Shown here one piece after another: positions 6,166 to 42,587 of a stretch of DNA of 50,979 nt (its first letter is position 1; each line of letters opens with the position of its first letter). The position numbers were made by a program, and so were the translations under genes. Where the stretch lies: the sequence record PZ445502.1. One strand, written 5' to 3'. The notes beneath the pieces were generated by a model. It was not told the origin of the DNA and did not search any database. It saw nothing but the letters and a program-made list of their open reading frames with translations. The DNA is from a phage.

Positions 6166-6192
6166 CTAATAGCATAAAAAAACATTGCACGT

Positions 6193-6209
6193 TTAACAAA
6201 AAGTGCTAT
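6193..6209 (+). promoter_or_regulatory. conserved motif, opposite orientation (TTAACAAAAAGTGCTAT), upstream of the major capsid gene
   Basis: exact core match; followed by a hairpin with T-run and then GGAGG before ATG 6256. Confidence 0.45.
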
Positions 6210-9900: not shown

Positions 9901-9942
9901 CATTCCTGTAAAATCAATCTATCAAATAAATTAATTCCACTT

Positions 9943-9959
9943 TTAACAAAAAGTGCTAT
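9943..9959 (+). promoter_or_regulatory. conserved motif, opposite orientation, directly upstream of the SD of the tail chaperone gene
   Basis: TTAACAAAAAGTGCTAT followed by AAGGAG and ATG 9974. Confidence 0.45.
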
Positions 9960-20394: not shown

Positions 20395-20663
20395 TAATTA
20401 CACCTCAAATCAATAAATTTACTTTCATTTTGCCAACGGTTGATAAATTTAACTTCTTTATTGTCAACGCTCAACCTGTATTGCTTTTGGCTGAATCTGT
20501 TTTCGCGGACTGCATTAATTTTGACTTCATGGAATCCGTTAACAGGGAATGTTTTAACGTTAAATTTTGCCGTGCAATCGATCTCCTTGAAGTTGCCAGT
20601 AGGCGACGCTGCGCATCCTGTCAGAGCGGCTACAGTGGCGATAACTGCGATTAACTTTTTCAT
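20394..20663 (-). CDS. small outer-membrane lipoprotein, Cor/Llp-like superinfection exclusion candidate
   Basis: 89 aa; signal peptide with lipobox LTGC; AAGGAG SD; next to the tail fibre region. Confidence 0.55.
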   Translation of the reverse strand: MKKLIAVIATVAALTGCAASPTGNFKEIDCTAKFNVKTFPVNGFHEVKINAVRENRFSQKQYRLSVDNKEVKFINRWQNESKFIDLRCN

Positions 20664-20694
20664 CTTTATATCTCCTTAGTTGTTGTTGTTTTCA

Positions 20695-20740
20695 ACTATA
20701 CACGATCTTGGGCATCGCGTTTAGCAAAAAGTGCTATTTG
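20695..20740 (-). promoter_or_regulatory. motif-class promoter (motif, ~21 nt, TATAGT) reading toward the lipoprotein operon
   Basis: minus strand reads AATAGCACTTTTTGCTAAAC then 21 nt then TATAGT. Confidence 0.5.
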
Positions 20741-21105
20741 TTATTTTTTGTTTTCCGGTGTTATCGAATTTAAGACGGCGTAAATTTAGCGCAAATTTTA
20801 TCCAACACAAGAACAATAAACAATCAATAAAATAGATATATACATATAAAATCAATAGTTTATTTATTTATGTATGTATATTTGTTTTTTCTTGTTGTCT
20901 GCGTTTCTTGTGGTTTTGGTTGTTTGTGGTGATTTTTCTTTCTGAGTATCTGTATGTGCCATCATTCATGTGTATGTATATAATCCGGCGTATCTGAGAG
21001 AACAGGGGAACAAGAAAAATAACACATATTAATCATTAACTTATGAGTCAAATCTGTTTTCTTGCCATCTGAGAACGTTTAGAAAACAGAAAAAACAAAA
21101 CAGCT

Positions 21106-21134
21106 ATTGACTAAATCAACCAAATGGCTACAAT
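21106..21134 (+). promoter_or_regulatory. sigma70-like promoter (TTGACT-N16-TACAAT)
   Basis: near-consensus hexamers at canonical spacing about 30 nt upstream of ATG 21165. Confidence 0.5.
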
Positions 21135-21164
21135 GCACGCATAAAGCAACAAGGAGCATTAAAG

Positions 21165-22292: not shown

Positions 22293-22949
<657 letters not shown>

Positions 22950-28050: not shown

Positions 28051-28061
28051 CTAGTCACCTC

Positions 28062-28105
28062 ATAGCATTTTTTGTTAAAACAGTTTATTGTAATGAGTCT
28101 ATTAT
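28062..28105 (+). promoter_or_regulatory. motif-class promoter (motif, ~21 nt, TATTAT) for the helicase operon
   Basis: ATAGCATTTTTTGTTAAAAC then TATTAT; the same element lies just upstream of the SD of the divergent HTH gene. Confidence 0.5.
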
Positions 28106-28137
28106 ATACTCCAAATGGCATTTTTTAAAGGTTTAAG

Positions 28138-30135
28138 ATGATTCCAAATATCGAAAAACAAATATCAGCGTTAGGCGAGGCAGTAATAAAAAGCATCCAA
28201 GAGCGATTCACGGTTGGCAATATAGTGCCTTATCCTTATCAGTGCGTTGCGTATGCCGAGATCGCAAAGCGCATGAAAAACTATGAGCATCCTTTCTTTG
28301 TTAAGGCTTCTGTGTCGGCTGGCAAAACATTGATGTTTGCGATGGTTGCGGCGCAATGCCGAAAAATGGGATTGAAAATGATGGTCCTTGCTCGCCAGGC
28401 TGAAATTGTTGATCAGGATTCGGAAGAGATCAGCAATCTTGGAGTGCCAAACTCAATCTATTGCGCCGGACTGAAAACAAAAAGCGCATACTTTCCGATC
28501 GTGGTCGGTTCTGAGGGCACTGTAGTAAACGGATTGTTTAAGTCGTTAGGTGATTATGTTCCGCACGTTATCGGTATTGATGAATGTCACCAGGTGGATT
28601 GGGAGGATCTCGCGGACGCGATAGAAAATAATGAATCTTACCAGCAGATGACCACTAAGAAGGATTTGCCAGTGCTGATTGGAGAAGAACAGCAATTTGA
28701 TTCCAATGGCGATCCAATGTTCGGAACAGGACGCACACAGTACACCGTAATAATCATGGAAATGATGCGCAGGTGTCGCGAGGCATACGGGCACGAATTG
28801 CGAATATTCGGTATGACTGGATCTGAATTTCGCGGCGTGGTTCCAATACTGGTTGAAGATAAGAACAAAAAGGGATTCTGGCGTGAGCAGGTGACTAACA
28901 TAGACACAAACTACTTAATCAAATTCGGTTCGGTAGTGCCAACAAACTTCGGCGACGTAGGCGACCTGGGTTATGACCTTTCAGAGTTCGAAGCCAGTAG
29001 CGAGGATGGCGTTTCAGACTTTGACGCTAAAACATTGCGCAAGATGGAAGAAAAGATCCATCAAGACGCAACAATGACACAGAAAATCATGGCTAAAGTC
29101 CATGAGATATGCAAAGACAGGAACGGAGTTTTAGTTACATGCGCAGGGGAAAGACACTGCAAGGAGGCCGCCGCCGCACTGCCGCCAGGCGTTGAATACA
29201 GGATCATAACTGGCAAGACTGGAGATAATCAGCGTAAAGAGTGGCTGAGGGAGGCATACGAGGGAAAAGTAAAATACATCTTCCAGGTACAGGCGCTTAC
29301 CACTGGCGTTAACGTTCCGTTTTGGGATACTTCGGTAATACTGAGAAAGATAGGATCTCTAACATTGCTTATCCAGCTTTTGGGGCGCGGTATGCGACTG
29401 CTTAAGCAATGGCACATTGAGCAGGGATTCAAGAAAAAAGACCATCTTGTATTGGATTTTGCCGGTACTATGGATGAGTTAGGGGATTTGTATTTCGATC
29501 CAATCCTTGAGCAAGCGCAATTCCAAAAGAGATTTACAAACGGGAAAGAGCCTAAGACTTGTCCGATATGTGGAACGCTAAACAGCTTTTACGCTCGCCG
29601 ATGTATGCACGTAGACGATAACGGGAAGAGATGCGAGCATTTTTGGACTTACAGAATTTGCGAGGACCAGGTAGATCCGAGAACGAAAAAGATAATCAAG
29701 CGCGGTTGCGGAACAAAAAACGACGTAGTGGCGAGAGTATGCCGTTGTTGCGATATTTCTCTTGTCGATCCTAACGAGAAGTTAAGCGGTAAGCACTACA
29801 CCAAAAACGATTGGTGCAACGTTAAATCTTTCCGCGTTGATATGACGAAAAACCAGAAAGGAATTATTTTTTGCTATGAGCTTGAGGCCAACGGCGACAC
29901 GTTCAAGGCATACGAAAGATTTTTCCCTGAGTCAGAAAGCAACATTTGCAGGACGATATGGAGAAAAATAGCATTGCAGCACATACCGGATCGCAAGATT
30001 GCTGGTATGGTGGCGAGCTATAGAAATGCGCGTAAAATAATGTCATACGCTCATCACATCATGCCGCCTGTACGAGTAACGCATCGCAAAAACGGCAAAG
30101 GTGAGGATAACATTGCAAAACGGGAGTTTGTTTAA
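28138..30135 (+). CDS. SF2 DNA helicase with C-terminal Cys-rich zinc-binding region
   Basis: 665 aa; Walker A SAGKT; DECH box; multiple CxxC pairs near the C-terminus. Confidence 0.75.
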   Translation: MIPNIEKQISALGEAVIKSIQERFTVGNIVPYPYQCVAYAEIAKRMKNYEHPFFVKASVSAGKTLMFAMVAAQCRKMGLKMMVLARQAEIVDQDSEEISNLGVPNSIYCAGLKTKSAYFPIVVGSEGTVVNGLFKSLGDYVPHVIGIDECHQVDWEDLADAIENNESYQQMTTKKDLPVLIGEEQQFDSNGDPMFGTGRTQYTVIIMEMMRRCREAYGHELRIFGMTGSEFRGVVPILVEDKNKKGFWREQVTNIDTNYLIKFGSVVPTNFGDVGDLGYDLSEFEASSEDGVSDFDAKTLRKMEEKIHQDATMTQKIMAKVHEICKDRNGVLVTCAGERHCKEAAAALPPGVEYRIITGKTGDNQRKEWLREAYEGKVKYIFQVQALTTGVNVPFWDTSVILRKIGSLTLLIQLLGRGMRLLKQWHIEQGFKKKDHLVLDFAGTMDELGDLYFDPILEQAQFQKRFTNGKEPKTCPICGTLNSFYARRCMHVDDNGKRCEHFWTYRICEDQVDPRTKKIIKRGCGTKNDVVARVCRCCDISLVDPNEKLSGKHYTKNDWCNVKSFRVDMTKNQKGIIFCYELEANGDTFKAYERFFPESESNICRTIWRKIALQHIPDRKIAGMVASYRNARKIMSYAHHIMPPVRVTHRKNGKGEDNIAKREFV

Positions 30136-30554
30136 TGGCTATAACTGATAAAGGAGATTATCTTGAGTTTTACGAAAGAGATCCAACCGACACTAGAAAG
30201 GAAGTTAATCACCAGATAGATAGCTTTCAGTGGTTGACTTATGCTCATCCTTACTTGCTGGCGTGGCATACGGTAAACGAGAATGAGAAGTCTAAAGCAA
30301 CGGCGATGATTGATCAGCAGTCCGGCTTGGTTAAGGGTGTAAGCGATTTCATCATCCTGATTGGTTTAAACGGAAAATACCCATTTGCAGCGATTGAGAT
30401 CAAACGAGTGAATAAATCAGGCAAGGGTAAAGCATCACCAGTCAGCGATGAACAAAAGGCTTTTTTGCGTCGAGTTCGCAGCTTAGGAGGATTCGCTGCG
30501 GTCGCCTACGGATTTAATCAGTTTAAGTTGGCTATTGAATACATGCTTAAATAG
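30135..30554 (+). CDS. VRR-NUC domain nuclease
   Basis: 139 aa; acidic/Lys motif IEIKRVNKSGKG...Q..FL typical of VRR-NUC; ATGA overlap with helicase. Confidence 0.5.
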   Translation: MAITDKGDYLEFYERDPTDTRKEVNHQIDSFQWLTYAHPYLLAWHTVNENEKSKATAMIDQQSGLVKGVSDFIILIGLNGKYPFAAIEIKRVNKSGKGKASPVSDEQKAFLRRVRSLGGFAAVAYGFNQFKLAIEYMLK

Positions 30555-30594
30555 CACTTTTTGTTAAAACTTGCGCGATGGATTGCGCCATAAT
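30550..30594 (+). promoter_or_regulatory. motif-class promoter (motif, 22 nt, CATAAT)
   Basis: overlaps the stop TAG; GCGC inverted repeat in the spacer. Confidence 0.5.
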
Positions 30595-32087: not shown

Positions 32088-32181
32088 GGATAGTTATCAT
32101 GTGGCGCTTGTTTGTTCTACCGTTACCCGTTATCATCGCTGTTACAGTTATGTACCATATAGTGATGAGATAGGTAGCAGA

Positions 32182-34556: not shown

Positions 34557-34780
34557 TATGCGTCGGGCCACATATGGCTTTCGTTTGTTGGCTTGTTCGA
34601 TTCGTCGTACTTCCTTACTTCAATGCTGCAAGTGTCGCCGTATAGTCCTGCAATCTTGCGCTCATTTTCAACCGCCGATTGCTCACTCCAGCCTGAATCC
34701 TTATCGTAAACTGTCGGGATTTCAGAAGAAGATCCATTTGCATGATTGTATACGCGAACTACTAAAAACTTGCTGGACAT
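34556..34780 (-). CDS. hypothetical protein
   Basis: 74 aa from ATG 34780 with AAGGA SD (track start 34831 lies upstream). Confidence 0.4.
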   Translation of the reverse strand: MSSKFLVVRVYNHANGSSSEIPTVYDKDSGWSEQSAVENERKIAGLYGDTCSIEVRKYDESNKPTNESHMWPDA

Positions 34781-35052: not shown

Positions 35053-35374
35053 CGCCCATCTCCCCTATTCTAGCCATATCCCTGATCCAGTCGTTGCGCA
35101 TACCATCCAGGCTATACAATTCGAATCCGAAAGGCCGCTTTGACGATCCTTTGGACCAGTATTTTCCGCAGACTCCATCTATATAACCAGCCGTCATCAT
35201 TCTTGCGCAAAATTCCTTAGATGCAAGGCTGGCGAACATTCGCGGCGTAAGTCCGGCGGCCCGTGCGAGCCGCTCACATTCTCTATGCTGATAGATAAAT
35301 TTGGCTATGTGCTGCCTGTTAAACCAATCGTATGACTCACACCATTTATACAGATCAAGCAAAAACATAATCAT
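34979..35374 (-). CDS. hypothetical protein
   Basis: 131 aa; ATGA-type coupling to the upstream NTPase gene. Confidence 0.45.
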   Translation of the reverse strand: MIMFLLDLYKWCESYDWFNRQHIAKFIYQHRECERLARAAGLTPRMFASLASKEFCARMMTAGYIDGVCGKYWSKGSSKRPFGFELYSLDGMRNDWIRDMARIGEMGDDELFQAKANRQDLEALRRKFNIT

Positions 35375-36951
35375 CCCAGCAGTATTGGATTGACAAAAAT
35401 AACACCATTAATCACACAAACATAATTTCTTTCTTCCAGCATTGGCAGTAAGTGCCCTTCTATCCTTTTCATTACGCCAGCCTGACCAACGAAAGGTTTT
35501 ACCTTTCTCGCTGATTCGTACAGGGCGCGAATATTCAGGATCCCTTTGTTAGCCTTGCCGTGCCTCGTGATCAATTCAATCAATTTACCCATTTCAGCAT
35601 CATCACCAGCATAACCAGAAGCATTGGCGGCGCTAATGTATGTTTTGCTCAATTCCTGAAACATGATCAACGCCTCTTGCATTGTTTCCACGTCGATCTC
35701 TTTCGACTTCTGCGGGTATCCGGCAGGATTAAACCAGTTACGGATAACATGCAGGACGGAAGCAAGCCTGATCACCTGTTTATCCATTTTACCCAGCGCA
35801 CCGCGTAACATTGTATGAGAATACTTTCCTCCGTCTGCAAGATGCGGTTCCATATCCTGGCGAGCAATGTTGAGCACTCGCATAGCTGAACGGCTTATTT
35901 TCAGCGATATATTTGATTCGCTCATGATGTTATGCACCAATTGATAATATTGGGCTTTCAATTCAGAATCCACCGCCTCATAGGTAGAATCACCATTTTC
36001 ATCAATGAATGAGCGACGGCCTAAGAATGATTCCTCGCGGACCAACAAAAAACGCTCACTAACACCGATGCCTCGCGAACCAGCGTCCATGATTCCGCTT
36101 ATCGTTTCATCCTGGGCTATAACGCTCATACATCCAAGCGCGCGAAAACTCATATTATTGTCAGCATTAGCACGGGCAATTGATACGTGACCATTATCCC
36201 ACGCCTTAAGCACTAACTCACTGTTAGTCTTCCTTTCGCTATTTGCATAGGTCAAACCTAACAGACTGTTAATACTTGTTGCTTCATCAGAAATTACGGC
36301 AAAGTTACCTTGCTTGTTGTTGATTTTCGCCAAGCCTTCTGGAGTTGTATCTGAAACAGGAAAAGTTATATCACACATTTTTTCCAGCTTTTCCTCCAGA
36401 TCCTCTTTTTCCTGGTATAGAGATTCCATATCAGCGCCGGATCTTTCGCTTTTCATCTCCTTTGCAAGACCTGCCAGCTTTGCCTGTATTTTCTTTCTTT
36501 CCTTGCGGCGTTGCTCGTTGATCTTCTCAACTTCCGCAATCATCGGAGCAATAGCCATGCTGTTGATCGCAGATTTACCAGTTGACGGCGGCTGGCTTGT
36601 AACGACGTAAAGCGCAGTCGGCTGATCGGTTCCGTGATAGTCAACCGTAAAGCGTCCAAGCATAGCGGCAGAAATGCAGCCGATAAAGTGCATGTAAGCC
36701 GATGATTCAGGGAATTGAACGGATCGCGCAATGCTGCGTGATAACTTGCCGACAACATCAATATCATTACCAAGAGAAATAACGGGGTAGCGATCGTGAC
36801 CGCTATTCACATCCTTTACGTCGCCCCAAAAGCTGGACGACTGGCGATAGCCGTTAGCCTGAATTGATACGCGAACTGGTGAAAGGTTCTGGCTTTCAGC
36901 CATAGCGATTATTTGCTGTGGAGTTAATTTGTTCGTTTCTAATGAAAACAT
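35371..36951 (-). CDS. P-loop NTPase of unknown function
   Basis: 526 aa; Walker A SQPPSTGKSA and Walker B-like FAVISDEAT; AAGGAG SD; largest early gene. Confidence 0.55.
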   Translation of the reverse strand: MFSLETNKLTPQQIIAMAESQNLSPVRVSIQANGYRQSSSFWGDVKDVNSGHDRYPVISLGNDIDVVGKLSRSIARSVQFPESSAYMHFIGCISAAMLGRFTVDYHGTDQPTALYVVTSQPPSTGKSAINSMAIAPMIAEVEKINEQRRKERKKIQAKLAGLAKEMKSERSGADMESLYQEKEDLEEKLEKMCDITFPVSDTTPEGLAKINNKQGNFAVISDEATSINSLLGLTYANSERKTNSELVLKAWDNGHVSIARANADNNMSFRALGCMSVIAQDETISGIMDAGSRGIGVSERFLLVREESFLGRRSFIDENGDSTYEAVDSELKAQYYQLVHNIMSESNISLKISRSAMRVLNIARQDMEPHLADGGKYSHTMLRGALGKMDKQVIRLASVLHVIRNWFNPAGYPQKSKEIDVETMQEALIMFQELSKTYISAANASGYAGDDAEMGKLIELITRHGKANKGILNIRALYESARKVKPFVGQAGVMKRIEGHLLPMLEERNYVCVINGVIFVNPILLG

Positions 36952-37652: not shown

Positions 37653-37699
37653 GATTATGCCAGGTTTTTACACCTGGCTTTTAACAAAAAGTGCTATTT
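37653..37699 (-). promoter_or_regulatory. motif-class promoter (motif, 22 nt, CATAAT)
   Basis: GCCAGGT...ACCTGGC inverted repeat abutting the -10 box. Confidence 0.5.
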
Positions 37700-39820: not shown

Positions 39821-39851
39821 CTTTAAATCCTCGTTTGTTGTCGATGCGCTT

Positions 39852-39897
39852 ACTATACCAATCAGCAGCGCATCGTTTTTAACAAAAAGTGCTATTT
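39852..39897 (-). promoter_or_regulatory. motif-class promoter (motif, 22 nt, TATAGT)
   Basis: minus strand AATAGCACTTTTTGTTAAAAA then 22 nt then TATAGT. Confidence 0.5.
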
Positions 39898-40159
39898 AGT
39901 CCAGAAATTCGATTTCACGCTCTCCAGTTAACGGATCTACAAGCCAGAATCCGAGCGGTTCGCCGTGAGCACCGCCATAGAATCCAAGCGCCGCCAGATC
40001 TTCACCTTTAACGAATACCAGGTTTCCGCTGCGGCTTACGTGAGACACGTTAACGATAACCGGAAATGTGCGATCCTTAAATGCAGGCCGCAGGGCGTAA
40101 CACCCGTTATTGAGCAAACGTGCTTTGCGCTTAACTGGAATAGGTGCATTAATTTTCAT
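39896..40159 (-). CDS. hypothetical protein
   Basis: 87 aa; AAGGAG SD; stop TAA abuts the motif. Confidence 0.45.
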   Translation of the reverse strand: MKINAPIPVKRKARLLNNGCYALRPAFKDRTFPVIVNVSHVSRSGNLVFVKGEDLAALGFYGGAHGEPLGFWLVDPLTGEREIEFLD

Positions 40160-40849: not shown

Positions 40850-41121
40850 TACTTCTTGATCTCCTTGCTGATAAATTTCAGCACCTGGCGCAAGAAAACC
40901 TCGTTGTTGATAGTCGCTGGCAATTCTTCTTTCACTTCTTGCGGCAGATAGATATTGCCGTGCCAGGTCAAGCAATCGTAGTTGATACGATAAGAGCAAA
41001 GCCACTCGCAATCGTTATCTGCTTCCCAAATGCAGAGTTGCAGAACATCGCCAAAATCTTCAACAGTCAGATCCAGACCGTGACGCTTAGCGAAATTGAA
41101 AGTGGTTTTGCTGATGTTCAT
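40849..41121 (-). CDS. hypothetical protein, first gene of the minus-strand early operon
   Basis: 90 aa; GGAGA SD. Confidence 0.45.
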   Translation of the reverse strand: MNISKTTFNFAKRHGLDLTVEDFGDVLQLCIWEADNDCEWLCSYRINYDCLTWHGNIYLPQEVKEELPATINNEVFLRQVLKFISKEIKK

Positions 41122-41152
41122 TGCTATCTCCTGTGCGGTTCGTTTCGATGTG

Positions 41153-41200
41153 TGTAATGTACCCGATCAGGTGGCCTGAGTTTTAACAAAAAGTGCTATT
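41153..41200 (-). promoter_or_regulatory. motif-class promoter (motif, 22 nt, TACATT) at the head of the minus-strand early operon
   Basis: minus strand AATAGCACTTTTTGTTAAAAC then 22 nt then TACATT. Confidence 0.5.
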
Positions 41201-41754
41201 TGACGGTTAGCGCCAGGATTGCGATCGAAATAATCAAAAGTAATCATTCGTAATCAAATCACGTCAAAATGATGATTGCCTTTGCAAATTTGATGAGAAA
41301 AGTAATCACGTTTAATCATTGGTTGCAGGGGAGATAGTGAAACCCTCCCCTCTTGCCTCACTTTTTCGCCTGGCTGTCAGTGGTTGTTGTCTTTTGTTCA
41401 CCCCTGTTACCGATTTCAGGCGGCGTGTTTCCGCGCGGTTTTCCGGTGTAGCGAAAACGGAAAAAACAAAGAAAATCCTCTATAATACATTGAAAATAAA
41501 GATTATTTATTTATATATATCTATAATGTTTTCTTTTTGTTCTCACTGTTACAGTGCTTTTTGTTGGTTATGGTGTGGTTGTGTGTGGGTATATATGGAT
41601 AGTTGCGCGCGCGGCGGATTGCATATGTATATATACTTTTTCCGGCGGATTGCGTTAACAGAGTGAACAGAAAAATAACAGCCGCGAAATCAATAACTTG
41701 CGCATGATTTTGTAGTTTTTCGATATTGGTAACGTTTTGAATACAACAAAAACA

Positions 41755-41783
41755 TTGACACGCACCAAATAGCTTTTATAATG
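41755..41783 (+). promoter_or_regulatory. sigma70-like promoter (TTGACA-N16-TATAAT) for the plus-strand early operon
   Basis: consensus hexamers at canonical spacing about 30 nt upstream of ATG 41814. Confidence 0.55.
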
Positions 41784-41813
41784 CGCCAACAGTCAACAAC
41801 TGGAGGAAAGGAA

Positions 41814-42278
41814 ATGGAACAGAAGACCACTAAGGACTATTGCGATTGGCTTCGCGAGCTTGGTCGCCGCCTGGCTAGTGGCGATATTGAAGAGTATAAA
41901 ATGTCACTAATTGACCTGGCCGGAATGTTAAGCGGTGACGACTGCTACAAGATCACGCGCAGTTCATCCTACAGCCGGACCATTATCAACCGCGTTCCAG
42001 AAGTAAGGGCCGCAGGTCGGGTAAGCATCAAGGTAGAGGAAACGGAAGATGATAAATTTTACGTTTTCCGCATGGTCCGCGAATCGAAAAGGAAAATCAT
42101 CACACCCGAAGAATTGCCAGCCATCAAGGCAAGGGCGATCAAAAAGTTTGCCGATCGCATACTGGCAGCAATCCCGAATATCGTTGACCTGGAAGGGGAT
42201 AAACTGGCTGGGGCTTGCGAGGGCGTAAGCCGCTACCAGGATATGATCCGCGAAATCATCAAAGAGGAAGAGCAATGA
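41814..42278 (+). CDS. hypothetical protein, first early gene
   Basis: 154 aa from ATG 41814 with GGAGG SD. Confidence 0.45.
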   Translation: MEQKTTKDYCDWLRELGRRLASGDIEEYKMSLIDLAGMLSGDDCYKITRSSSYSRTIINRVPEVRAAGRVSIKVEETEDDKFYVFRMVRESKRKIITPEELPAIKARAIKKFADRILAAIPNIVDLEGDKLAGACEGVSRYQDMIREIIKEEEQ

Positions 42279-42547
42279 AAAAGGCATTAATCAGCGTTTT
42301 GGCGGCAATGGCATTCCTGACCGGATGCAAAGAAGATGGCGCGCATGTTGGCAATGTGCAGATGGCTAACCCTGGCGATGACTACAGCGTAAGGGAGCTA
42401 TTCACCGCTGACGGTTGCACCGTTTACCGATTCTATGACGATCGCACTGTTTACTTCACCAACTGCAAGGGCGCTACTAGCTGGGAAGTGTCGAAAAGCA
42501 ATGGCAAAGGCACGAAGACAGAACATATGACCGTCGAGACAAAATAG
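42275..42547 (+). CDS. small lipoprotein (second lipoprotein; Llp/Cor-like candidate)
   Basis: 90 aa; signal peptide with lipobox LTGC; ATGA overlap with the upstream gene. Confidence 0.5.
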   Translation: MKKALISVLAAMAFLTGCKEDGAHVGNVQMANPGDDYSVRELFTADGCTVYRFYDDRTVYFTNCKGATSWEVSKSNGKGTKTEHMTVETK

Positions 42548-42587
42548 CACTTTTTGTTAAAACGCCAGGCGCGAAGCCTGGCATAAT
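42543..42587 (+). promoter_or_regulatory. motif-class promoter (motif, 22 nt, CATAAT)
   Basis: GCCAGGC...GCCTGGC inverted repeat abutting the -10 box. Confidence 0.5.

What the first reader, a model, noticed from the sequence alone, without database searches (positions are those of the whole stretch)
20664..21164. A ~500-bp AT-rich noncoding strand-switch region that is homologous to a second region at 41.2-41.8 kb
The region contains TTATTTATTTATGTATGTATA, a T/G-rich tract GTGGTTTTGGTTGTTTGTGG, GAACAAGAAAAATAACA and GAAAACAGAAAAAACAAAAC, ending in a sigma70-like promoter TTGACT-N16-TACAAT that drives the exonuclease gene. Each block has a diverged counterpart in 41435-41700 in partly rearranged order, and the right-end promoters are also homologous (ACCAAATGGCTACAAT versus ACCAAATAGCTTTTATAAT). 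A near DnaA-box TTATCCAACA lies near 20800. Two copies of a large noncoding element at the two points where transcription diverges suggests paired early regulatory regions, candidate replication origins, or both.
Basis: seen in the sequence. Interest (0 to 1): 0.7.

Follow-up and report, generated by a model that had tools for sequence, protein, structure and literature searches.

The report
Twin noncoding control/origin-like modules in T1-like phage
This T1-like phage carries two related copies of a ~400-bp noncoding module, each with a strong early promoter and an easily melted AT-rich core; all sampled relatives keep both copies, which makes them the best candidates yet for the unidentified replication origins of T1-type phages.

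Summary
Region A (20664-21164) and region B (41122-41813) align colinearly, at 66% identity over ~380 columns and a score of 77 against shuffle means of 13-21. No third copy exists.

The window is a complete Warwickvirus (Drexlerviridae) genome. Every relative examined, from nine lineages including T1, TLS-like, Rtp and KP36, has both copies. A lies upstream of the recE-erf-ssb operon and B upstream of the first early operon.

Copies within a genome resemble each other far more than orthologs do between subfamilies. Each lineage also has short words almost exclusive to its pair.

Each module contains:
- a leftward promoter module of the known 21-nt-repeat type;
- an AT-rich core flanked by inverted T-rich and A-rich boxes, the two least stable duplex stretches in the genome;
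- about 250 bp to the right, a σ70 promoter with an A-tract upstream element (B's is the only perfect consensus in the genome).

There is no DnaA box, GATC cluster, conserved ORF, Rfam match or conserved RNA structure.

Best reading: paired immediate-early control regions (well supported) whose cores are probably phage-specific replication origins (inferred, ~45%). The main rival is a purely transcriptional operator or enhancer.

The parts
20664..20740 (-). Region A, left edge: promoter module of the 21-nt-repeat type for the leftward cor / outer-membrane-protein genes. The repeat is at 20737->20720, the -10-like TATAGT at 20700->20695, followed by the RBS and the ATG at 20663.
   Evidence: Matches the TLS repeat aaATAGCACnnnTTGnTAAAA. 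Another copy of the same module gives the weak third hit at 39821-39898. Cor family assignment.
20735..20755 (+). A: T-box 1 (TATTTGTTATTTTTTGTTTTC)
   Evidence: Direct repeat D2 with 20879-20899, 144 bp apart. Inverted repeat with 21082-21104. TTTTTGTT is conserved in 25 relatives.
20807..20819 (+). A: A-box 1 (ACAAGAACAATAA), the left arm flanking the AT core
   Evidence: D7; inverted repeats I1/I2.
20812..20891 (.). A: AT-rich core, 86% AT. It is the least stable 80-bp duplex window in the genome. Imperfect dyad with arms 20819-20851 and 20864-20896. An IHF-consensus string lies at 20850-20862.
   Evidence: (z = 4.9), and (both strands fold about equally, z about -3).
20879..20899 (+). A: T-box 2 (TATTTGTTTTTTCTTGTTGTC), the right arm flanking the core
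   Evidence: TT.TTGTT is conserved.
20903..20935 (+). A: G/T-rich tract on the top strand
   Evidence: Downstream GC skew is +0.35 and T-A skew +0.70. The tract is shared by Tempevirinae and T1 but not by KP36 or Rtp.
20956..20992 (+). A: second TATA box plus CCGGCG (CATGTGTATGTATATAATCCGGCGTA). Includes a predicted GTGCCA-17-TATAAT promoter-like site.
   Evidence: D4; GTATATA: 5 copies against 0.06 expected.
21000..21043 (+). A: A-box 2 (GAACAGGGGAACAAGAAAAATAACA) and the conserved ATCA...TTA block (21031-21043)
   Evidence: I5, D7.
21082..21134 (+). A: A-box 3, an UP-element-like A-tract (21082-21103), followed by the sigma70 promoter TTGACT (21107-21112) - 16 nt - TACAAT (21129-21134). It drives the recE-like exonuclease (ATG 21165), erf and ssb.
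   Evidence: (conserved). TLS P51 is the equivalent promoter. T1 has an annotated promoter at the same place.
41122..41199 (-). Region B, left edge: promoter module of the 21-nt-repeat type for the leftward early operon. The repeat is at 41199->41182, the -10-like TACATT at 41161->41156, and the ATG at 41121.
41200..41383 (.). B-only insert. Contains (G/A/T)TAATCA repeats (41228-41251 and 41300-41323) and a GC-rich hairpin (41327-41351). Function unknown. T1 and Stevie have counterparts; slyngel does not.
   Evidence: (D2).
41385..41410 (+). B: T-box 1 (TGTTGTCTTTTGTTCACCCCTGTTAC)
   Evidence: D1, 142 bp from T-box 2.
41453..41486 (+). B: A-box 1 (GAAAACGGAAAAAACAAAGAAAA) followed by the conserved cTATAAT hexamer (41481-41486) at the left edge of the core
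   Evidence: I3, D5; an exact TATAAT at or next to this edge in 8 of 14 elements.
41461..41540 (.). B: AT-rich core, 85% AT. It is the second least stable 80-bp window in the genome.
   Evidence: z = 4.6; the 40-bp window 41480-41519 ranks first. This is the part most widely conserved among Drexlerviridae.
41527..41590 (+). B: T-box 2 (41527-41552), a short hairpin with T-run (41544-41563), and the G/T-rich tract
   Evidence: The hairpin is not conserved in other elements.
41617..41700 (+). B: second TATA box plus CCGGCG (41617-41648), A-box 2 (41663-41681), and the ATCAATAACTTG block, an IHF-consensus string (41688-41700)
41739..41782 (+). B: A-box 3, UP-like (41739-41754), followed by the sigma70 promoter TTGACA (41755-41760) - 16 nt - TATAAT (41777-41782). 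It drives the first rightward early operon (ATG 41814, DUF7174 protein).
   Evidence: (the only 12/12 consensus match in the window). TLS P01 is the equivalent promoter.
35371..36951 (-). Candidate trans-acting factor (inferred, not shown): a DUF3987 MCM-like replicative helicase with a faster-evolving C-terminal module. It is encoded in the leftward gene block that starts at B.
   Evidence: Literature: (PMC4889955, PMC11724360).
27574..28050 (-). Alternative candidate binder (inferred): a Cro/YdaS-like HTH regulator

Best explanation
A and B are two paralogous copies of a composite noncoding control module that all sampled Drexlerviridae carry in duplicate.

Shown:
- Each copy ends on the right in a sigma70 promoter with an A-tract upstream element. 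This is read as an immediate-early promoter. A fires the recE-erf-ssb operon and B fires the first early operon.
- Each copy starts on the left with a promoter module of the 21-nt-repeat type for the leftward genes, probably dependent on a phage factor.
- About 250 bp upstream of the sigma70 promoter lies an AT-rich core flanked by inverted T-rich and A-rich boxes. The two cores are the most easily melted DNA in the genome.
- The two copies co-evolve within each lineage.

Inferred: the core and its flanking boxes form the phage's replication origin, present twice. In this model a phage-encoded, lineage-specific DNA-binding protein occupies the repeated words on both sides of the core. The leading candidate is the DUF3987 MCM-like helicase through its C-terminal winged-helix module, or one of the neighbouring HTH proteins. 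Early transcription from the adjacent promoters supplies negative supercoiling, and possibly an RNA from the conserved cTATAAT at the core edge. The AT core then opens, and the phage helicase and DnaG-type primase are loaded to recruit host Pol III.

The confidence value refers to the origin inference. The promoter assignments alone I would put at about 0.85.
For: 1. Homology and significance.
2. Both copies are present in all nine lineages sampled: T1, Stevie/CF1, slyngel/PGN590, K50, KP36, Rtp, W011D, v049800 and the window. Own A-vs-B scores are 33-88, against shuffle means of 13-21 where tested.
3. Co-evolution. The own-genome partner ranks first in 6 of 9 lineages in each direction (binomial P about 1e-4, my calculation). 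The gap is overwhelming for K50 (85 vs <=44), KP36 (88 vs <=30) and Rtp (83 vs <=32), while orthologs between subfamilies fall to background.
4. Lineage-specific words nearly exclusive to A/B: KP36 GTAAGAT 13 of 19 genome copies, flanking the core; KP36 ATCTTACC 7 of 8; T1 GTGTAACA 4 of 4; Rtp CCGCGGAA 5 of 5. T1 and Rtp both infect E. coli but use different words, so a host factor is an unlikely reader.
5. Within Webervirus the core is conserved across genomes in both copies, yet A and B are not always identical within a genome. That indicates purifying selection on a specific sequence.
6. The cores are the two least stable 40-, 80- and 150-bp windows in the genome, z = 3.7-4.9.
7. A and B share the same internal plan of 2 T-boxes and 3 A-boxes, with one inverted pair flanking the core.
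8. The phage encodes its own replicative helicase (DUF3987) and a DnaG-type primase. No origin has been identified in T1-like phages.
9. The element is absent from E. coli chromosomes and plasmids.
10. Promoters.
Against: - There are no replication data of any kind.
- In the window itself the repeated boxes are low-complexity T/A tracts that could equally be UP-like or bending sequences. The sharp lineage-specific words are seen in KP36, T1 and Rtp, not here.
- Both copies are retained in every lineage, and the core sits at a nearly constant ~250 bp from the sigma70 promoter. That looks like a local cis-regulatory role rather than redundant origins.
- The strong promoters point away from the core.
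- The window's own A and B cores are only about 66% identical, and each is closer to a copy in another genus (A to Hanrivervirus, score 184-191; B to W011D, score 133). Any recognition must therefore tolerate variation.
- GC skew is uninformative because it follows transcription.
- The helicase-domain divergence result is only weakly suggestive.
Confidence: 0.45

Rival explanations
1. Purely transcriptional control region. The core and boxes are an upstream operator or enhancer array for the two immediate-early operons. A phage regulator (for example the Cro/YdaS-like HTH protein) and host architectural proteins bind there to boost and later shut off early transcription. The two copies stay alike because they answer to the same regulator, as lambda OL/PL and OR/PR do.
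For: - Both elements head immediate-early operons with sigma70 promoters.
- The core-to-promoter distance is conserved: 249 and 250 nt in the window, and 249-283 nt in most Tempevirinae and T1 A copies.
- Both copies are retained in all lineages.
- A-box 3 abuts the -35 hexamer like an UP element.
- Lineage-specific words fit operator-repressor co-evolution.
- An HTH regulator is encoded by the phage.
Against: - The words and the core lie 170-280 bp upstream of the promoters rather than overlapping them.
- Ten or more sites flanking a 50-80-bp AT-rich, minimally stable core is origin-like rather than operator-like.
- The third sigma70 promoter region (28.1 kb, in front of the regulator gene itself) has no copy of the element.
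- The occurrences of the lineage-specific words listed include none in the regulator-helicase intergenic regions of KP36, T1 or Rtp, whose coordinates come. This is my reading of those lists.
- In KP36 and Rtp the A-B similarity covers the core but not the promoter-proximal part.
Confidence: 0.3
2. Recombination or genome-organisation site. The paired cores act as preferred entry or synapsis sites for the phage RecE/Erf system, to start recombination-dependent replication or form concatemers. Alternatively, a protein bridges them to loop the genome.
For: - A lies directly upstream of the recE-erf-ssb operon in every lineage.
- The two copies are direct repeats that stay similar.
- The cores are easily melted DNA.
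Against: - No specific signature was found. There is no Chi site in the genome.
- Crossover between direct repeats 20 kb apart would delete essential genes.
- Lineage-specific flanking words suggest site-specific binding rather than general recombination.
Confidence: 0.08
3. The cores encode small noncoding RNAs or long structured leaders, transcribed from the conserved cTATAAT at the core edge.
For: - A TATAAT sits at or next to the left edge of the core in 8 of 14 elements.
- In B a short hairpin plus T-run follows about 60 nt downstream.
- RNA folding z-scores are about -3 in A.
Against: - No Rfam match appeared even at E <= 1, apart from noise.
- RNAalifold finds no consensus structure in 17 cores.
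- Both strands fold equally well, as expected for DNA dyad symmetry.
- The hairpin/terminator is absent from A and from other lineages.
- There is no -35 element upstream of the hexamer.
Confidence: 0.07
4. No sequence-specific function. The regions are AT-rich spacers and promoter-upstream filler, kept alike only by occasional gene conversion between the two copies.
For: - T1-like phages encode an efficient recombination system.
- KP36 has a stretch of more than 50 nt of perfect identity between its copies.
Against: - The core is conserved across many Webervirus genomes, while A and B can differ within a genome.
- Identity decays gradually away from the core instead of ending at the sharp borders expected of a conversion tract.
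- The same modular plan persists across the whole family.
- The short words are highly enriched.
Confidence: 0.07
5. Region B is the pac site, suggested because several GenBank records, including T1, KP36 and Rtp, are opened inside it.
For: The T1, KP36 and Rtp records are linearised within B.
Against: - A is a paralog located far from any record end.
- The TLS authors assigned pac by similarity to the P22 pac sequence. From my own knowledge the P22 pac lies in its small-terminase gene. The TLS paper gives no coordinate.
- The opening point of a record is a matter of convention.
Confidence: 0.03

Closest known systems
Bacillus phage SPP1 oriL and oriR (from my own knowledge, not tested here)
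   Same: - A virulent siphophage that uses the host Pol III together with its own helicase system.
- It has two homologous origin copies far apart in the genome.
- Each origin consists of repeated initiator-binding boxes next to an AT-rich region.
   Different: - The SPP1 boxes are bound by a dedicated initiator (G38P) and oriL lies inside its gene. Here no initiator has been identified.
- The elements here are intergenic and are fused to early promoters.
- There is no sequence similarity.
Satellite phage P4 ori plus crr, and SaPI origins (from my own knowledge)
   Same: - A helicase-type initiator recognises short iterons through a terminal DNA-binding domain.
- P4 needs two separated cis elements that carry the same iterons.
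- SaPI origins have iterons flanking an AT-rich stretch, with specificity differing by lineage.
   Different: - The helicase here is DUF3987/SF6, not a P4-alpha-type or SaPI Rep protein.
- TGTTCAC-like words occur in some Tempevirinae elements but are not notably enriched in the window.
- Binding has not been tested.
Phage T4 oriF(uvsY) and oriG(34), origins made of a promoter plus a downstream unwinding element (from my own knowledge)
   Same: - A promoter hexamer is followed directly by a DNA-unwinding element.
- There are several origins per genome.
- One origin sits in front of a recombination gene.
- A G-rich non-template tract downstream could stabilise an R-loop.
   Different: - The hexamer here has no recognisable -35 element or activator box.
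- No R-loop or transcript has been shown.
- The G/T-rich tract is absent from KP36 and Rtp.
Phage lambda OL/PL and OR/PR (paired early control regions) and ori-lambda
   Same: - Two homologous early promoter/operator regions co-evolve with a phage regulator.
- ori-lambda has iterons next to an AT-rich region.
   Different: - Both promoters here point the same way.
- The repeated words lie about 250 bp upstream of the promoters instead of overlapping them.
- The TLS authors found no lambda-like iterons in the helicase gene or elsewhere in TLS.
TLS/T1 21-nt direct repeats and TLS promoters P01 and P51 (PMC11447400)
   Same: - The left edges of A and B are copies of this repeat.
- The right-end promoters correspond to TLS P01 and P51.
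   Different: That paper treats the repeats and promoters as separate items. The parts of it I read and searched do not describe the ~400-bp paralogy, the AT core, or its co-evolution. It states that no origin-type repeats (iterons) were found anywhere in the TLS genome.
E. coli oriC-type (DnaA-dependent) origin
   Same: An AT-rich, easily melted segment.
   Different: No consensus DnaA box and no GATC cluster.

Membership tests
oriC-type, DnaA-dependent origin | Cluster of DnaA boxes (TTWTNCACA) | tested here: not met
   The consensus occurs 4 times in the genome and never in A or B. TTATCCAACA is not conserved in 25 relatives.
oriC-type, DnaA-dependent origin | GATC enrichment | tested here: not met
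   1 GATC in A and 2 in B, against a genome density of 3.1 per 500 bp.
Iteron-type phage or plasmid origin (lambda, SPP1, P4, SaPI) | AT-rich DNA-unwinding element | tested here: met
   The cores are the two least stable 40-, 80- and 150-bp windows in the genome, z = 3.7-4.9. This is a nearest-neighbour stability proxy, not an assay.
Iteron-type phage or plasmid origin (lambda, SPP1, P4, SaPI) | Several copies of a short specific word adjacent to or flanking the unwinding element | tested here: inconclusive
   Clear in relatives: KP36 GTAAGAT 13 of 19 genome copies, T1 GTGTAACA 4 of 4, Rtp CCGCGGAA 5 of 5. In the window the repeats are low-complexity T/A-boxes: five per element, and the test pattern gives 10 matches against 2.6 expected, 6 of them in A and none in B.
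Iteron-type phage or plasmid origin (lambda, SPP1, P4, SaPI) | Bound by a cognate initiator; supports replication in cis | not testable with these tools
   Requires EMSA or ChIP and plasmid-amplification or marker-frequency experiments.
Sigma70 early promoter | -35 and -10 hexamers at 16-18 nt spacing, positioned in front of the operon | tested here: met
   A has TTGACT-16-TACAAT (10/12). B has TTGACA-16-TATAAT (12/12, unique in the genome). The -35 starts 58-59 nt before the ATG.
Sigma70 early promoter | Conservation in relatives and independent prediction | tested here: met
   The A promoter is conserved in 25 Tempevirinae. TTGACT-16-TAnAAT is present in T1, Stevie, slyngel and K50. TLS P01 and P51 are the equivalents. 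Promoters are annotated at the same places in T1 and KP36. No TSS data exist.
TLS-type 21-nt direct-repeat module | aaATAGCACnnnTTGnTAAAA upstream of a gene, in the direction of transcription | tested here: met
   Copies at 20737->20720 and 41199->41182 on the minus strand, each followed 19-20 nt later by a -10-like hexamer, then an RBS and ATG.
T4-type origin (promoter plus downstream unwinding element, R-loop) | Promoter immediately upstream of the unwinding element | tested here: inconclusive
   C(T/C)(A)TATAATA lies at or next to the left edge of the core in 8 of 14 elements. There is no -35 element, the region is AT-rich so chance hexamers are common, and it is absent as an exact hexamer from the window's A.
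Structured noncoding RNA (any Rfam family) | Covariance-model match or conserved secondary structure | tested here: not met
   No match at gathering thresholds. Only noise at E <= 1. RNAalifold predicts 0 pairs in 17 sequences.

The most novel reading that the evidence does not exclude
The twin modules are the long-sought replication origins of T1-type phages, and would be the first origins defined for a phage that uses an MCM-like (DUF3987/SF6) helicase. In this reading the helicase, or a partner HTH protein, reads lineage-specific words on both sides of the AT core. Early transcription opens the core, possibly priming through an R-loop on the G/T-rich tract. The two copies work together in cis, like P4 ori and crr, which would explain why no lineage has lost either one.
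Probability: 0.18. Interest if true: 0.75.

Novelty: new member of a known kind. Interest (0 to 1): 0.55.

Why it matters
T1 is one of the seven classical T phages and a notorious laboratory contaminant, yet recent genome papers on its relatives TLS and SU57 report that no origin could be found there, and I found none described for T1-like phages. This work defines two precise, family-wide, co-evolving noncoding modules that can be tested directly as origins and as immediate-early control regions.

It also links three items that were previously noted separately or not at all: the TLS promoters P01 and P51, the 21-nt repeats, and the AT cores.

If the cores are origins, they would show how an MCM-like phage helicase is targeted to DNA. 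They would also give handles for engineering or disabling T1-like phages. If they turn out to be only regulatory, the result still defines the immediate-early switch of the family.

Tried and rejected
- **DnaA-box / oriC-like origin:** rejected. There are no consensus boxes, no GATC cluster, and the near-box is not conserved.
- **Structured RNA:** rejected as the main reading. No Rfam match; both strands fold equally well; no consensus structure.
- **Protein-coding:** rejected. ORFs are sporadic in size, strand and position, so the small ORFs annotated in the KP36, T1 and K50 records are probably spurious.
- **tRNA genes:** none in the window.
- **P4-like TGTTCACC iterons:** a lead from memory. 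TGTTCAC-like words are seen in some Tempevirinae elements, but they are not among the enriched k-mers in the window, so I did not rely on it.
- **Third copy:** none. The weak hit at 39.8 kb is a 21-nt-repeat module, and the third divergent switch has no similarity.
- **GC skew as an origin indicator:** uninformative, because it follows gene orientation.
- **Global 26-sequence alignment for the co-evolution test:** too noisy. Replaced by pairwise local scores.
- **Occurrence outside phages:** none in E. coli genomes or plasmids.
- **PDB sequence search with the helicase:** nothing meaningful.
- **Literature:** four broad searches and several T1-like genome papers gave no description of the paired element.
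- **Anchoring B on the small gene to its right:** failed, only 2 loci. The helicase gene was used as the anchor instead.
- **Exact 15-mer scan of viral contigs:** returned mostly chance hits. Only the ~50-kb contigs with paired hits were used.
Full report
**What the window is.** The 50,979-bp window is a complete genome of a T1-like siphophage. It is 99.6% identical across region A to Escherichia phages tunus, XY3 and EC195; tunus is classified as Drexlerviridae, Tempevirinae, Warwickvirus. Region A (20664-21164) lies between a leftward Cor-like lipoprotein gene and the rightward recE-like exonuclease, erf and ssb genes. Region B (41122-41813) lies between a leftward block of early genes and the first rightward early operon. 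That leftward block includes a DUF3987 helicase gene 4.2 kb away. The first rightward ATG is at 41814, after correcting my initial misreading.

**Checking the observation.** BLASTN aligns A positions 75-434 to B positions 263-633 on the same strand in one colinear block, with 250/381 identities. The local alignment score is 77. Dinucleotide shuffles give 13.5 +/- 1.8, and shuffles within 25-nt blocks, which preserve local composition, give 21.2 +/- 3.7. No other 700-bp tile of the genome on either strand exceeds 31. The similarity is therefore real homology, not low-complexity AT matching, and the order is colinear rather than rearranged. B carries an extra ~180 bp (41200-41383) that A lacks. 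The genome has a third divergent switch at 28051-28137 with no trace of the element.

**The left edges are a known dispersed repeat.** The shared CAAAAAGTGCTATTTG at the left of both regions is the reverse complement of the 21-nt direct repeat aaATAGCACnnnTTGnTAAAA. This repeat was described in TLS, T1 and Rtp, and its function is unknown (PMC11447400). It occurs 19 times in the window against 0.5 expected. In 16 of 19 copies a -10-like hexamer ((c/t)ATAAT, TATAGT and similar) starts 19-20 nt after the 18-nt motif, followed by about 30 nt, an RBS and a start codon. In 7 of 19 the spacer contains a perfect GC-rich stem of at least 5 bp, against 7% of shuffles. This geometry centres the repeat at about -41.5, the position of class II activator sites (my inference). 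The leftward genes at A and B are therefore fronted by such modules, probably dependent on a phage factor. The weak third hit at 39821-39898 is just another such module.

**The right edges are sigma70 promoters.** A ends in TTGACT-16-TACAAT (21107-21134) and B in TTGACA-16-TATAAT (41755-41782). The B promoter is the only 12/12 consensus match in the whole window. Each is preceded by an A-tract box resembling an UP element. The -35 hexamer starts 58-59 nt before the start codon and 249-250 nt after the centre of the AT core. The A promoter and its A-tract are conserved across 25 Tempevirinae sequences. TTGACT-16-TAnAAT is also present in T1, Stevie, slyngel and K50. Independently, the TLS paper lists only three sigma70-type intergenic promoters: P01 before gp01, P51 before the exonuclease gene, and P57 at the third switch. 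P01 and P51 correspond to the right ends of B and A. The reading of A and B as immediate-early control regions is therefore well supported, although no transcription start site has been mapped.

**Anatomy of the central part.** A and B share the same plan.
- A T-rich box of about 20 nt occurs twice, 142-144 bp apart (A: 20735-55 and 20879-99; B: 41385-410 and 41527-52).
- Its complement occurs three times (A: 20807-19, 21009-28 and 21082-104; B: 41453-75, about 41660-85 and 41739-54).
- The inner A-box/T-box pair flanks an AT-rich core as an imperfect inverted repeat.
- To the right follow a G/T-rich tract, a second TATA-rich box with CCGGCG, GAACA repeats, and a conserved ATCA...TTA block.

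The cores (20812-20891 and 41461-41540, 85-86% AT) are the two least stable duplex windows of the genome at 40, 80 and 150 bp (z = 3.7-4.9). Enriched words are TATATA/GTATATA (5-7 copies against 0.06-0.2 expected) and TTGTT/AACAA (21 against 5).

**What the element is not.**
- There is no TTWTNCACA box in A or B, GATC is not enriched (1 and 2 sites), and there is no Chi site in the genome.
- No Rfam family matches at gathering thresholds or credibly at E <= 1, and there is no tRNA.
- Single-strand folding is better than shuffles to a similar degree on both strands (z = -3.0 and -3.4 for A; -1.6 and -2.1 for B). That is the signature of DNA dyad symmetry, not of a strand-specific RNA.
- RNAalifold finds no consensus structure at all in 17 diverse cores.
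- ORFs in the elements vary in size, strand and position. The window's 115-codon ORF in B is missing from its closest B relative.
- The element is absent from 5,426 complete E. coli genomes and from PLSDB plasmids.

**Family-wide duplication and co-evolution.** I retrieved both regions from T1, Citrobacter phage Stevie (Tlsvirus), Salmonella phage slyngel (Hanrivervirus), Klebsiella phage K50_evo29, KP36 (Webervirus) and Rtp (Rtpvirus), and from IMG/VR contigs. Every genome has both. A is always upstream of the exonuclease operon. B is always upstream of the first rightward early operon, and many GenBank records, including T1, KP36 and Rtp, are opened inside B.

Own A-versus-B local scores for the seven reference phages are as follows; block-shuffle means are 13-21 and shuffle maxima 19-34.

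| Phage | Own A-vs-B score |
|---|---|
| Window | 77 |
| T1 | 35 |
| Stevie | 61 |
| slyngel | 53 |
| K50 | 85 |
| KP36 | 88 |
| Rtp | 83 |

Between subfamilies, A-A and B-B similarity falls to background (<=34). Among nine lineage representatives the own-genome partner is the best match in 6 of 9 cases in each direction, where chance gives 1 in 9 (binomial P about 1e-4, my calculation). The margins are very large for K50, KP36 and Rtp. A global 26-sequence alignment was too noisy for this test.

In KP36 and Rtp the shared part is 130-160 bp centred on the AT core, with more than 50 nt of perfect identity in KP36. Across Webervirus contigs the core is conserved in both copies, but A and B are not always identical within a genome. 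This argues for purifying selection on a specific sequence rather than only recent gene conversion.

Each lineage also has short words almost confined to its pair: KP36 GTAAGAT (13 of 19 genome copies, flanking the core) and ATCTTACC (7 of 8), T1 GTGTAACA (4 of 4), and Rtp CCGCGGAA (5 of 5).

In Stevie and KP36, region A lies between co-directional genes. A strand switch is therefore not a defining property of the element.

**Candidate trans-acting factors.**
- The 526-aa protein at 35371-36951 (minus strand) carries DUF3987 (E = 1.7e-44) and belongs to a PHROG annotated as DNA helicase.
- DUF3987 proteins are regarded as MCM-like SF6 replicative helicases of phages with a C-terminal winged-helix domain (PMC4889955). 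One has been shown to unwind DNA 5'->3' (PMC11724360).
- The N- and C-terminal modules of the protein diverge faster than its core across seven lineages (mean identity 0.59 and 0.55 against 0.74). This fits a specificity domain but does not prove one.
- The phage also encodes a DnaG-type primase, an SF2 helicase and a Cro/YdaS-like HTH regulator. No DNA polymerase gene is reported for T1 or TLS.
- Recent genome papers state that no origin could be found in TLS or SU57.

**Interpretation.** The promoter functions at both edges are the secure part. For the core and boxes I favour a replication origin present in two copies. It would combine an unwinding element flanked by sites for a lineage-specific phage protein with activation by adjacent early transcription. 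The conserved C(T/C)(A)TATAATA at or next to the left edge of the core (8 of 14 elements) and the G/T-rich tract downstream (Tempevirinae and T1 only) allow a T4-like promoter-plus-unwinding-element variant.

The main rival is a purely transcriptional upstream operator or enhancer. Three facts favour it: both copies are retained everywhere, the core-to-promoter spacing is constant at about 250 bp, and the window's own boxes are low-complexity. I put the origin reading at about 0.45 and the purely regulatory reading at about 0.30. Recombination site, small RNA, functionless homogenised spacer and pac site share the rest. GC skew cannot help because it follows gene orientation.

**Novelty and limits.** Iteron-plus-AT-rich origins, duplicated origins (SPP1 oriL/oriR, P4 ori/crr) and paired early control regions (lambda) are all known kinds, so this is a new member of a known kind. 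I found no description of the paired module or its co-evolution in the literature I could access. The 2004 T1 genome paper and the older T1 replication papers were not available to me. Comparisons with SPP1, P4, SaPI, T4, lambda and HSV origins rest on my own knowledge and were not tested here.

Noticed in passing
window, 19 sites (for example 30551-30568 +, 42544-42561 +, 37680-37697 -): The TLS-type 21-nt repeat is followed at a fixed 19-20 nt by a -10-like hexamer in 16 of 19 copies. That centres the repeat at about -41.5, like a class II activator site. In 7 of 19 spacers there is a perfect GC-rich stem of at least 5 bp, against 7% of shuffles. This suggests activator-dependent middle promoters, some overlapping terminator-like hairpins. 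The parts of the TLS paper I read and searched do not mention the fixed -10 or the hairpin.
   Followed up: partly
window 6192-6209 (-) and 9942-9959 (-): Two perfect copies of the 21-nt repeat lie antisense to the surrounding rightward structural genes. All other copies point with transcription.
   Followed up: no
window 41200-41383: The B-only insert has about six (G/A/T)TAATCA / TGATT words and a 7-bp GC hairpin (41327-41351). T1 and Stevie have TGATT-rich counterparts in their B regions, and T1 B also has three tandem GATTAACAC units. In slyngel the whole left half is missing and the core abuts the upstream gene.
   Followed up: partly
window 20664-21164 vs 41122-41813; loci L006, L013-L017, L020/L059: Mosaicism. 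The window's A region is closest to Hanrivervirus A regions (scores 184-191), whereas its B region is closest to that of phage W011D (133). The two modules therefore seem to have different recent histories.
   Followed up: partly
phage collection records MG0656xx: Eighteen records labelled 'Campylobacter phage' with host Campylobacter jejuni are ~47-50-kb T1-like genomes that carry these elements. They are probably mislabelled or contaminant coliphages.
   Followed up: no
L008 (KP36) 110-415; L004 (T1) 30110-30250; L007 (K50_evo29) several 30-40-codon CDS: Public records annotate small ORFs inside the A/B elements. These ORFs are not conserved between lineages and are probably spurious.
   Followed up: partly
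L008 (KP36) about 34575-34600, just upstream of the exonuclease gene: In KP36 the exonuclease operon is preceded by a 21-nt-repeat-like sequence (GGATAGCACTTTTTGAC) instead of the TTGACT-16-TAnAAT sigma70 promoter seen in Tempevirinae and T1. The promoter type at A can therefore differ between lineages.
   Followed up: no
window 22894-22923 (+): A strong sigma70-like site (TTGACA-18-TAAAAT, 11/12) lies inside the 3' end of erf, upstream of ssb. It matches a promoter annotated at the equivalent place in T1 (32109-32138).
   Followed up: no
whole window: GATC occurs 317 times, against about 199 expected from sequence length alone, yet only 3 times in the 1.2 kb of A plus B. There is no Chi (GCTGGTGG) on either strand, with about 1.6 expected.
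   Followed up: no
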